This document shows, in pieces, positions 31,201 through 34,200 of a stretch of DNA of 64,000 bases. The stretch's first letter is position 1; every line of letters starts with the position of its first letter. Location: the NCBI RefSeq assembly GCF_051903065.1, contig NZ_CP178440.1; one strand, written 5' to 3'. The position numbers are program-made. This DNA is from Escherichia coli. Lineage in GTDB: Bacteria > Pseudomonadota > Gammaproteobacteria > Enterobacterales > Enterobacteriaceae.

Positions 31201-34200
31201 CATCCGGCAAAAAGGAATACAGGAACTACAGGCGACGGGACTCGTCGTCACTGCCCATGGAGACCAGCGTAAATCCGTCGTACAGAAGAGGATAAAATGG
31301 GAGAGCAGTTATCGATTCCCTATCCGGGCAGCCCGTTTACGGGCCGTAAGTAACGAAGTTGGATGCAAATGTCAGATCGTGTGCGCCTGTTAGGGCGCGG
31401 CTGGTAAGAGAGCCTTATAGGCGCATTTGAAAAACCTCCGGCTATGCCGGAGGATATTTATTTATCGAGTTCGGTGACCGCCTGGACGGTCACTTCTGAG
31501 ACAAGGCATTTACACAGAATCTTAAACAGGCTCGCTAATTTACCACCCAATGGCAAAACCAGCTCCTAAGTTTGTATCACCACCATTGTTCCATGATGTG
31601 TTGACTCGTATGTTAGCATTCTGGCTCACTTTATATTGAACTCCGGCTGCGATTGCTTGAGCATCACGATAATGCCCCACGCCCATACCAAATGAAAAGC
31701 GCTCATTATTAACATAAGGAATTGATGAAATAGCGGTAACTCCGGCAATACCCGCATTAGCACGCTTTTCGACTCTATCTATTTTTTTATTCATTTGTGA
31801 GAATCTTTGCTCATTTTTCTGCTGTAAATCATTTAATGTTTTATTGAAGTTTTTACCTAATGTATCAACGCTAGATGCAGTATATTTGTTTGCCATTTCT
31901 AGAGTGTTTAAATCACCTTGTTCACGGAGTCTTTTCTCTTCATTGATTGCACTTGTTCTGGCTTTTTTTTCTTCATTTATTCTTGCAACTACTGATTTGC
32001 TGGGGTCTTTTTCTATATTTTTAATTTCATCTTCACTCATGCCTATAGCTTTAGTGACAACATCTAATTGGGACATATTCACAGCATCTGTAGGATTTAC
32101 GCCCCCGGCAAGATTCGTGATTCTTCTGTTTATCATGGGCTCTGTCGTTGTTGCTTCCCTTCCTAAAGATACAACACCATTCTTACTATCTGTGTTCTCT
32201 ACAGCGGTATATTTAGATACAGTATCATCATATTGATTATGCGTTTTCGATCTTGCCCCAAGAGCAATACTGCCTTTTGAATTAGACTCAGATAAATATC
32301 CAATGGAAACAGAATCAGTTTCCTGAGAGGCTGAATATGATCCTAATGCAATACTATTTTTACCAATGGAATGAGACTCTAATCCTATGGCAGAACTGCC
32401 AGAGCCAATTGATAATGATTGACTACCCAATGCTGTACCAAATTCACCAACCACCGTCGAAAAGGAACCTACTGCCGTTCCTTCAATATTGTGGGAACTT
32501 GATTTATATCCCATTACAGATGACGCATATTGATTCCCATATTTCTCCTTAGCATGAGGATCAACAGATGAGTCAACAGAAATATGTCCATCAGCGGATA
32601 CTGTTATTTTTTTACCACTCACATCTAAGGATGAATTATTTTCAGGCAATTTAGTTACTGAAGCTTTGTTACCGATTAAAGTTGAATAGTTTCCTTCTGA
32701 ATCAATTTTCGATCTGGATCCAACTATAGTCGAAAAAGTCCCTGCTTCTGTTGCAGAATCGTATCCTATTACTACTGATGCTCCTGCTCCTCCTTTTTCT
32801 GGTATATTCAAAGACTTAGAATTTGGACCTATTACTACTGAGAAATTTTGTTCTGATCTTGTAGCATCACCAATTCCCTTACCAATAGCGATACTGCCAA
32901 TACCTGAAGATTCTGTATTATCCGCACCAATAGCTATAGATGAGTAGCCTTTAGGATTAGCAGCAAAAGAACAAAGGCTAACACCAGATAATGTTAATAG
33001 TATAGATGATAAAATTAATTTATTATTCATAGCAACATATCCCACCAAAGTAGATAGATTATCGTTATTCCTCGATAAATAAATTGCAATGTAAGATACA
33101 TTAATCTTAACAATGTGTTAACATAAGAGGCTGTTAACACATTTAGTTTATAACATAAAACATCATAAATATTAAGGGCACTGTTGCAAATAGTCGGTGG
33201 TGATAAACTTATCATCCCCTTTTGCTGATGGAGCTGCACATGAACCCATTCAAAGGCCGGCATTTTCAGCGTGACATCATTCTGTGGGCCGTACGCTGGT
33301 ACTGCAAATACGGCATCAGTTACCGTGAGCTGCAGGAGATGCTGGCTGAACGCGGAGTGAATGTCGATCACTCCACGATTTACCGCTGGGTTCAGCGTTA
33401 TGCGCCTGAAATGGAAAAACGGCTGCGCTGGTACTGGCGTAACCCTTCCGATCTTTGCCCGTGGCACATGGATGAAACCTACGTGAAGGTCAATGGCCGC
33501 TGGGCGTATCTGTACCGGGCCGTCGACAGCCGGGGCCGCACTGTCGATTTTTATCTCTCCTCCCGTCGTAACAGCAAAGCTGCATACCGGTTTCTGGGTA
33601 AAATCCTCAACAACGTGAAGAAGTGGCAGATCCCGCGATTCATCAACACGGATAAAGCGCCCGCCTATGGTCGCGCGCTTGCTCTGCTCAAACGCGAAGG
33701 CCGGTGCCCGTCTGACGTTGAACACCGACAGATTAAGTACCGGAACAACGTGATTGAATGCGATCATGGCAAACTGAAACGGATAATCAACGCCACGCTG
33801 GGATTTAAATCCATGAAGACGGCTTACGCCACCATCAAAGGTATTGAGGTGATGCGTGCACTACGCAAAGGCCAGGCCTCAGCATTTTATTATGGTGATC
33901 CCCTGGGCGAAATGCGCCTGGTAAGCAGAGTTTTTGAAATGTAAGGCCTTTGAATAAGACAAAAGGCTGCCTCATCGCTAACTTTGCAACAGTGCCACCG
34001 GAAGTACAGACCATTCGTCGTCTGGTGACCGAAAGTGAAGTGGCGGTGGCGGGGAACAGTAAATTCCGCTTCGTGGGGGCTGATGCCTTCTCGCCAGACG
34101 AACTGCGCACCGATTTGTTCAGCGATGACGGGGACGGTTATGTCGACCGCGTGGCGCTCGATGCTGCCCTGCTGGAAAAACTCCAGGCTGTCGCAGAGTT

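What the first reader, a model, noticed from the sequence alone, without database searches (positions are those of the whole stretch)
33031..33176. Inverted TGTTAACA-type repeats in the adhesin promoter region
The short AT-rich region between the adhesin start and IS26 contains paired inverted motifs (TGTGTTAACAT ... CTGTTAACACA) that look like an operator for a dimeric regulator, but no regulator gene is present in the module; expression may depend on a host factor or on the outward-facing promoter of the adjacent IS26.
Basis: seen in the sequence. Interest (0 to 1): 0.2.

Follow-up and report, generated by a model that had tools for sequence, protein, structure and literature searches.

The report
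Conserved hairpin upstream of plasmid adhesin
The inverted repeat is real and conserved, but it looks more like a small hairpin in the adhesin gene's own leader than a repressor site, and the adjacent IS26 has cut off the gene's original upstream control region and supplies a replacement promoter half; this is ordinary biology.

Summary
Observation confirmed. A perfect 12-bp inverted repeat, AATGTGTTAACA-N8-TGTTAACACATT, lies at 33112-33143. It sits in the 146-bp, 27% GC gap between the ATG of a YadA-like trimeric autotransporter gene (- strand, 33030) and the IS26 left end (33177). Only 0.1% of shuffles of the region give an arm that long.

The repeat belongs to the adhesin's native upstream DNA and was not created by IS26. 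IS26-free alleles in E. coli and Proteus-type plasmids carry it unchanged.

The only diverged lineage (~92% identical, adhesin pseudogenised) keeps the pairing through a symmetric double substitution (C-G to T-A). Its spacer changes from 8 to 11 nt and differs in sequence, yet predicted hairpin energy is unchanged (-14.3 vs -14.1 kcal/mol). This favours a hairpin, probably at or near the 5' end of the adhesin mRNA, over a fixed-spacing operator. The support is one or two events in two lineages.

No second copy of the motif and no cognate regulator was found. An operator is not excluded.

IS26 marks a rearrangement junction with no target duplication. It removed the native upstream region, including a hypervariable (TTGTTA)n tract. 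It also creates a textbook hybrid promoter, TTGCAA-16 nt-TATGAT. Interest is low.

The parts
33112..33143 (-). Perfect inverted repeat / predicted stem-loop: arms 33112-33123 and 33132-33143, 8-nt loop 33124-33131. It lies -113 to -82 relative to the A of the adhesin ATG.
   Evidence: sequence, 100% complementary. (p about 0.001). (RNA hairpin -14.3 kcal/mol, z -5.6). (conserved in the second lineage with a compensatory C-G to U-A change).
31540..33030 (-). YadA-like trimeric autotransporter adhesin gene, 496 aa plus stop, with a Sec signal peptide MNNKLILSSILLTLSGVSLCSFA.
   Evidence: translation. (Pfam YadA_head, YadA_stalk, YadA_anchor). (100% identical protein cluster named for Proteus mirabilis). 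(WP_060555118.1 on E. coli plasmids).
33040..33046 (-). Shine-Dalgarno-like GGTGGGA, 9 nt upstream of the ATG.
   Evidence: Read from the sequence; inferred, not tested.
33147..33155 (-). Candidate native extended -10 element TGtTATAAA, with a possible -35 TTAATA at 33175-33170. The predicted start near 33140 falls inside the upstream arm of the repeat.
   Evidence: TTAATA-17-TATAAA with upstream TG, present in the window, the native allele and lineage 2. (the conserved block between lineages starts here). The start site is inferred.
33093..33121 (-). Second candidate native promoter: -35 TTAACA (33121-33116, inside the downstream arm), 17 nt, -10 TATCTT (33098-33093). With the predicted start near 33086, the dyad centre lies at about -41.5.
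   Evidence: found in the window and in both lineages. The position arithmetic is mine; the start site is inferred.
33162..33189 (-). IS26/flank hybrid promoter candidate: -35 TTGCAA in the IS26 left terminal repeat (33189-33184), 16-nt spacer, -10 TATGAT in adhesin-upstream DNA (33167-33162).
   Evidence: In native alleles the same TATGAT has only a 3/6 -35 at 19 nt. Published IS26 -35 TTGCAA hybrids are cited.
33177..33996 (+). IS26 copy, one of six in the window, at a rearrangement junction. The flanking 8-mers differ (ATATTAAG / ACCGGAAG), so there is no target-site duplication.
   Evidence: The native continuation of the adhesin upstream region is absent from the window. The right side is IncF leading-region DNA.
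33088..33102 (-). Small second palindrome AATGTA-TCT-TACATT centred on the TATCTT hexamer. Lineage 2 has AATATA-TCT-TATATT, another symmetric double change. Window base 33102 (sense-strand A) is G in all IS26-free lineage-1 alleles.
   Evidence: columns 58-63 / 67-72; pair 61-69 is AU:3, GC:2. (the SNP).

Best explanation
The inverted repeat is a conserved, hairpin-forming element of the adhesin gene's own promoter-proximal leader. It was inherited with the gene from an AT-rich Proteus-type plasmid backbone and was not created by IS26. Most likely it is transcribed with the adhesin mRNA and folds into a 12-bp stem-loop of about -14 kcal/mol at or within about 12 nt of the 5' end. There it would act as a leader structure, for example a 5' stem-loop that protects the message from 5'-end-dependent decay, as in ompA and papA, rather than as a fixed-spacing operator. 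In this window the upstream IS26 marks a rearrangement junction 33 bp from the repeat. The junction removed the native upstream control region: the terminator of a toxin-antitoxin/VapD-like operon and a hypervariable (TTGTTA)n tract. IS26 places its outward -35 TTGCAA 16 nt from a flank TATGAT, so the adhesin can be transcribed from a new hybrid promoter in addition to any native core promoter retained in the 146 bp. Shown: the repeat, its conservation and compensatory change, the junction, the loss of upstream DNA, and the promoter-like hexamers. Inferred: the transcription start sites, that the hairpin forms in RNA, and any effect on mRNA stability.
For: The repeat is perfect and improbable by chance. 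It is identical in all IS26-free alleles: L001, L002 and L021-L026. In the only diverged lineage (pMS20659, pH22, pQ501, two metagenome/Logan contigs) the arms are ATGTGTTAATA/TATTAACACAT. This is a C>T change in one arm matched by G>A at the paired position. The loop changes from 8 to 11 nt with a different sequence. Predicted hairpin energy is preserved, -14.3 vs -14.1 kcal/mol, helped by extra outer pairs. RNAalifold recovers the helix with two pairs changed on both sides. One outer pair is G-U on the sense strand only. Sequence conservation between lineages starts abruptly at a TGnTATAAA extended -10-like element just upstream of the repeat. That places the predicted start in or just before the stem. 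The stabilising role of 5' stem-loops is established knowledge (Emory 1992, Bouvet & Belasco 1992, Arnold 1998 and Bricker & Belasco 1999, listed in PMC3997798). For IS26: TTGCAA-16-TATGAT, literature precedent, no target duplication, native upstream DNA absent.
Against: Only two lineages exist in all collections searched, so covariation rests on one clear event, perhaps two. The shuffle control is not significant (134/500). The second lineage's adhesin is a pseudogene, so selection there may be relaxed. No transcription start is known. If the real promoter is TTAACA-17-TATCTT, the repeat lies upstream of +1 and is transcribed only from further upstream. The stem is AU-rich and modest in stability. 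A symmetric element overlapping predicted core promoter elements is also what a repressor or activator site looks like. There was no Rfam match.
Confidence: 0.4

Rival explanations
1. Operator: the repeat is the double-stranded binding site of a dimeric or tetrameric regulator, from the host or from the original plasmid, that represses or activates the adhesin promoter.
For: Perfect dyad symmetry. It overlaps both conserved candidate promoters: about -3 to +29 of the extended -10 candidate, and centred near -41.5 with its downstream arm covering the -35 TTAACA of the other candidate. A second small palindrome sharing the AATGT/ACATT ends sits on the -10 candidate and also changes symmetrically.
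Against: The spacer differs by 3 bp between lineages while the arms stay complementary. The symmetric substitution would weaken both half-sites for an unchanged protein and destroys each arm's GTTAAC palindrome. No second copy of the motif occurs in the window, in the native loci, or upstream of the neighbouring HTH gene, whose own promoter carries a different palindrome, ATAACC-N4-GGTTAT. There were only 4 chance-level hits, all in unrelated phyla, in 100,044 genomes. No motif is shared with the parA/parG control region.
Confidence: 0.27
2. Neutral or relic palindrome: an AT-rich sequence accident or a remnant of an older element (for example the terminator of a lost neighbouring gene), with no current role in adhesin expression.
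For: Only two lineages are available. One is a pseudogene that still keeps the repeat. The covariation statistics are weak. There is no Rfam family and no related copies elsewhere.
Against: Chance probability is about 0.001. Complementarity and folding energy are preserved despite 2 arm substitutions, a 3-nt loop indel and several loop substitutions. It lies within the block that is conserved between lineages, whereas DNA just upstream has diverged.
Confidence: 0.22
3. Intrinsic terminator read on the + strand: the hairpin plus TTTAGTTTAT ends an antisense transcript that starts inside the 5' end of the adhesin gene and covers its ribosome-binding site.
For: The terminator scan reports it on the + strand: 12 pairs, loop 8, tail TAGTTTATAA. 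A promoter-like site exists on the + strand at 32894-32921.
Against: Only 3 G-C pairs. The U-tract is broken and is weaker still in lineage 2 (ATTGCTTTATAAC). The + strand promoter is a 9/12 consensus match inside coding DNA. On the sense strand no U-tract follows the stem, so it is not an attenuator either.
Confidence: 0.06

Closest known systems
5'-terminal stabilising stem-loops of E. coli mRNAs (ompA 5' UTR, papA)
   Same: A simple, stable hairpin close to the predicted 5' end of an outer-membrane protein/adhesin mRNA. Its pairing, not its loop, is conserved.
   Different: The 5' end is not mapped here, no half-life data exist, and there is no sequence similarity to those leaders. The resemblance is functional and inferred.
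IS26 hybrid promoters (aphA7, blaSHV-2a, blaKPC, aac(6')-Ib-cr/blaOXA-1)
   Same: The outward-facing TTGCAA in the IS26 terminal repeat is combined with a -10-like hexamer in the flank at 16-17 nt, with the gene reading away from the IS.
   Different: The downstream gene is an adhesin rather than a resistance gene. Activity is untested. Candidate native core promoters also remain between IS26 and the gene.
Dyad-symmetric operators of HTH repressors (lacO, tetO type)
   Same: Perfect inverted repeat overlapping predicted promoter elements.
   Different: The arms are 12 bp and centre-to-centre distance is 20 bp, changing to about 22-23 bp in the relative. There is no cognate regulator and no second site.
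Repeat-tract control of trimeric autotransporter expression (Neisseria nadA TAAA tract); from my own knowledge, not checked here
   Same: Native alleles carry a variable-length short tandem repeat upstream of a YadA-like adhesin promoter.
   Different: The tract is (TTGTTA)n, on enterobacterial/Proteus plasmids, and is absent from this window. No expression data exist.

Membership tests
Dyad-symmetric operator of a dimeric regulator | Two inverted half-sites | tested here: met
   12-nt arms, 100% complementary.
Dyad-symmetric operator of a dimeric regulator | Half-site spacing fixed among orthologous sites | tested here: not met
   Spacer is 8 nt in lineage 1 and 11 nt in lineage 2.
Dyad-symmetric operator of a dimeric regulator | Cognate regulator gene, or further copies of the motif (autoregulation/regulon) | tested here: not met
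   No other copy in the window, native loci or 100,044 genomes. The neighbouring HTH gene's promoter has a different palindrome. The module has only ParA, ParG and an unknown 85-aa ORF.
Dyad-symmetric operator of a dimeric regulator | Specific protein binding to the duplex | not testable with these tools
   Needs EMSA or pull-down.
5' stabilising stem-loop of an mRNA | Thermodynamically stable hairpin on the sense strand | tested here: met
   -14.3 kcal/mol, z = -5.6, 0 of 200 shuffles as stable.
5' stabilising stem-loop of an mRNA | Pairing maintained by compensatory change | tested here: inconclusive
   One clear C-G to U-A pair, plus one outer pair in RNAalifold. Only two lineages; the shuffle control gives 134/500.
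5' stabilising stem-loop of an mRNA | Hairpin within a few nucleotides of the transcript's 5' end | tested here: inconclusive
   This rests only on predicted promoters: extended -10 at 33155-33147, or the IS26 hybrid. No start site is mapped.
5' stabilising stem-loop of an mRNA | Lengthens mRNA half-life | not testable with these tools
   Needs rifampicin chase with stem mutants.
Intrinsic (Rho-independent) terminator | G+C-rich stem followed directly by a U-tract | tested here: not met
   Only 3 G-C pairs of 12. No U-tract on the sense strand, and a broken one on the + strand.
IS26 hybrid promoter | IS26 end with outward TTGCAA, a -10-like hexamer in the flank at 16-18 nt, and the gene in the same orientation | tested here: met
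   TTGCAA 33189-33184, 16 nt, TATGAT 33167-33162, adhesin on the - strand.
IS26 hybrid promoter | Transcript start mapped downstream of the hybrid -10 | not testable with these tools
   Needs 5' RACE.
Invertible promoter switch (fimS / mrp type) | Inverted repeats flanking a promoter segment, plus a recombinase | tested here: not met
   The arms are only 8 nt apart. No conserved long-range inverted repeats occur in the native intergenic region. No recombinase is adjacent.
Rfam RNA families | Match to a curated covariance model | tested here: not met
   No hit at E <= 1 in native locus L002.

The most novel reading that the evidence does not exclude
The adhesin's native control region would be a composite switch that is unusual for Enterobacterales plasmids. 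It would combine a hypervariable (TTGTTA)n tract that tunes or phase-varies transcription with a conserved leader hairpin or operator. The IS26 rearrangement in this multiresistance plasmid would then have replaced that switch with a constitutive hybrid promoter, locking a Proteus-derived adhesin ON on an IncF resistance plasmid.
Probability: 0.12. Interest if true: 0.45.

Novelty: new member of a known kind. Interest (0 to 1): 0.15.

Why it matters
The finding matters little on its own. It is a small conserved palindrome in the leader of an uncharacterised plasmid adhesin, next to a textbook IS26 hybrid-promoter arrangement. The useful outcome is a correction of context. The 146-bp 'promoter region' is a truncated remnant, so any regulation inferred from it must allow for the lost upstream region and the IS26-supplied -35. 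If the adhesin is expressed from the IS26 hybrid promoter, this would be an example of IS26 rewiring a colonisation factor rather than a resistance gene on a multiresistance plasmid.

Tried and rejected
1. Regulon or repeated-element idea. The pattern ATGTGTTAAYA-N6-14-TRTTAACACAT gave 4 hits in 100,044 representative genomes (Clostridium, Saprospiraceae, Lachnospiraceae, Fusibacter). This is close to my rough expectation from pattern length and collection size, and none is in Enterobacterales.

2. Further copies in the window or in the native loci: none.

3. Known RNA family: no Rfam hit.

4. Independent lineages for covariation. Closer adhesin homologues (84%, 80% and 67% identity) have unrelated N-termini and upstream DNA. 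A metagenome scan, a viral-contig scan and an N-terminal protein search returned only the two known lineages.

5. HigA-like antitoxin of the native upstream operon as the regulator: its own promoter palindrome is unrelated.

6. ParG or the partition site: the only shared 8-mer with the parA upstream region is at chance level (859/1000 shuffles).

7. Invertible promoter: no conserved flanking repeats.

8. The same IS26/adhesin junction elsewhere: none in PLSDB.

9. Literature on this adhesin: nothing specific found.

10. Resemblance to CRP, LexA, PhoP, OmpR or RcsB boxes was considered from memory only. The spacings do not fit, and this was not tested.

Full report
**Observation**

The region 33031-33176 is the 146-bp, 26.7% GC gap between two features. 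One is the start codon of a - strand gene, with its ATG at 33030-33028. The other is the left terminal repeat of an IS26 copy, GGCACTGTTGCAAA, starting at 33177.

The gene encodes a 496-aa YadA-like trimeric autotransporter with head, stalk and anchor domains.

Within the gap there is a perfect inverted repeat: AATGTGTTAACA (33112-33123), an 8-nt spacer, then TGTTAACACATT (33132-33143).
- Only 0.1% of 5000 dinucleotide-preserving shuffles of the region produced a perfect arm of 12 nt or more.
- Across the window, six such repeats exist against 0.13 expected from shuffles.

**Origin and context**

The adhesin protein is 100% identical to a cluster named for Proteus mirabilis. It is also found on a few E. 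coli plasmids as WP_060555118.1. It is rare: 2 of 5426 complete E. coli genomes and 1 PLSDB plasmid carry the full gene.

IS26-free alleles (L001, L002, L021-L026) show the native arrangement, in this order:
- a Gp49/HigB-like toxin, HTH antitoxin, DUF5397 and Cas2/VapD-like operon;
- a strong G+C-rich terminator;
- an AT-rich spacer holding a (TTGTTA)n tract;
- the sequence retained in the window, then the adhesin, with parG and parA convergent downstream.

The window keeps only the last 146 bp of this upstream region.
- The native continuation (GATATTGAAACTGG...) is nowhere in the window.
- The 8-mers flanking this IS26 differ (ATATTAAG / ACCGGAAG).
- DNA on the other side is IncF leading-region sequence.

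IS26 therefore marks a rearrangement junction and is not a simple insertion. The 3.5-kb segment 29667-33176 is bracketed by two direct IS26 copies. It holds an 85-aa ORF, ParA, ParG and the adhesin. This exact junction was not found in PLSDB.

**Is the repeat conserved?**

All lineage-1 alleles carry it unchanged.

A second lineage is about 92% identical in the gene and about 88% identical from -130 to the ATG. Its adhesin is pseudogenised. It comprises pMS20659, pH22, pQ501, one metagenome contig and one Logan contig. It has ATGTGTTAATA-N11-TATTAACACAT.
- A C>T change in one arm is matched by G>A at exactly the paired position, so 11 of 12 pairs are kept.
- Each arm loses its internal GTTAAC palindrome.
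- The loop gains 3 nt and changes sequence.
- Predicted RNA hairpin energy is the same in both lineages, -14.3 and -14.1 kcal/mol. In lineage 2 this is helped by four extra outer pairs.
- RNAalifold recovers the helix with two pairs changed on both sides and one sense-strand-only G-U pair.

The statistical weight is small. Only two lineages exist, and the shuffle control is not significant (134/500). My own estimate: if the two arm substitutions were independent, the chance that they fall on one pair and remain complementary is about 1/36 to 1/18.

Searches for further lineages failed.
- Closer protein homologues (84%, 80% and 67% identity) have unrelated signal peptides and upstream DNA. The 67% homologue sits in a Proteus prophage between the lysis genes and the terminase genes.
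- DNA-pattern scans of metagenome and viral contigs and an N-terminal protein search returned only the known lineages.

**Promoter geometry (predicted only)**

On the adhesin strand three promoter-like sites exist in the window.
- (a) TTGCAA (33189-33184, inside the IS26 end), 16 nt, then TATGAT (33167-33162). In native alleles the same TATGAT has only a 3/6 -35 at 19 nt, so this promoter is created by IS26.
- (b) TTAATA (33175-33170), 17 nt, then TGtTATAAA (33155-33147). The extended -10 part is conserved in both lineages. It coincides with the point where inter-lineage conservation begins.
- (c) TTAACA (33121-33116, inside the downstream arm), 17 nt, then TATCTT (33098-33093). This is conserved in both lineages.

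The expected positions of the repeat differ by promoter.
- With (a), the start is near 33155 and the hairpin lies about 12 nt into the transcript.
- With (b), the start is near 33140 and the stem begins at the 5' end.
- With (c), the start is near 33086 and the repeat is centred near -41.5.

**Interpretation**

A rigid dimeric operator should keep its spacing. A symmetric substitution should not help it, because an unchanged protein would see both half-sites weakened. A hairpin needs only complementarity and tolerates loop changes. The comparative pattern therefore favours a hairpin.

There is also no second copy of the motif anywhere relevant. The adjacent HTH antitoxin has a different palindrome in its own promoter. 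No motif is shared with the par control region. There is no Rfam match.

I therefore rank the readings as follows.
- Transcribed leader stem-loop, 0.40. Its plausible role is protection of the 5' end, as established for ompA and papA (references listed in PMC3997798).
- Operator, 0.27.
- Functionless palindrome, 0.22.
- Terminator on the + strand, 0.06. The stem has only 3 G-C pairs and the U-tract is broken.

IS26 supplies the -35 TTGCAA in hybrid promoters for aphA7, blaSHV-2a, blaKPC and aac(6')-Ib-cr, the last with a mapped start (PMC7986276; PMC11156391).

**Novelty and verdict**

The repeat is real and is probably functional. It is an ordinary kind of element, either a leader hairpin or an operator, next to a well-known IS26 effect.

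The most interesting by-product lies outside the window. The native alleles carry a hypervariable hexanucleotide tract upstream of the adhesin, and IS26 has removed it here. Interest is 0.15.

Noticed in passing
Native loci, not in the window: L021 3740-3790, L022, L024, L001 7840-7915, L002 6020-6095: A hexanucleotide tract (TTGTTA)n lies about 200-270 nt upstream of the adhesin ATG. Its length is 28, 40, 70, 75 and 75 nt in otherwise identical alleles, with different interruptions. A nearby poly-T run is T7 or T8. The 3' end of the tract forms a TTGTTA-16-TGnTATGAT promoter-like site. This looks like a phase- or rheostat-type repeat, and the IS26 junction deleted it from the window. Some of these alleles are short-read assemblies that may collapse repeats.
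   Followed up: partly
window 33088-33102: A second small palindrome, AATGTA-TCT-TACATT, is centred on the TATCTT -10 candidate. It shares AATGT/ACATT ends with the main repeat. Lineage 2 has AATATA-TCT-TATATT, a symmetric double change. The window differs from all IS26-free lineage-1 alleles by one base here (33102, sense A vs G).
   Followed up: partly
window 33177-33996 and 28847-29666: Two direct IS26 copies bracket the 3.5-kb ParA-ParG-adhesin segment. The copy at 33177 has no target-site duplication and joins Proteus-type DNA to IncF leading-region DNA (ParB-like, psiB, ssb, hok). The window holds six IS26 copies in all.
   Followed up: partly
window 31457-31544: The stretch of about 85 bp just downstream of the adhesin stop codon matches sequence found beside IS1414/IS256-family elements in thousands of E. 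coli records at 92-97% identity. It may be a repeated element or a terminator module.
   Followed up: no
L010/L011 3001-4650 (Proteus mirabilis prophage): A 67%-identical YadA-like homologue sits between the lysis cassette (holin, lysozyme, DUF2570/Rz) and the small terminase subunit of a prophage. This is a typical cargo ('moron') position.
   Followed up: no
window 33072-33081: TCGATAAATA resembles the H-NS high-affinity motif TCGATAAATT. That motif is recalled from memory and was not checked. The region is 27% GC, so H-NS silencing is plausible, but it was not tested.
   Followed up: no
window 30140-30260: An array of short TATGAT / TTATGAT-type repeats lies upstream of parA. It is probably the ParG-bound partition or operator site. 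It is unrelated to the adhesin repeat.
   Followed up: partly
window 39072-39127, 17665-17711, 23841-23876: Three longer perfect inverted repeats lie elsewhere in the window, with 27-, 19- and 14-nt arms. The first has a G+C-rich core with flanking A/T runs, like a bidirectional terminator.
   Followed up: no
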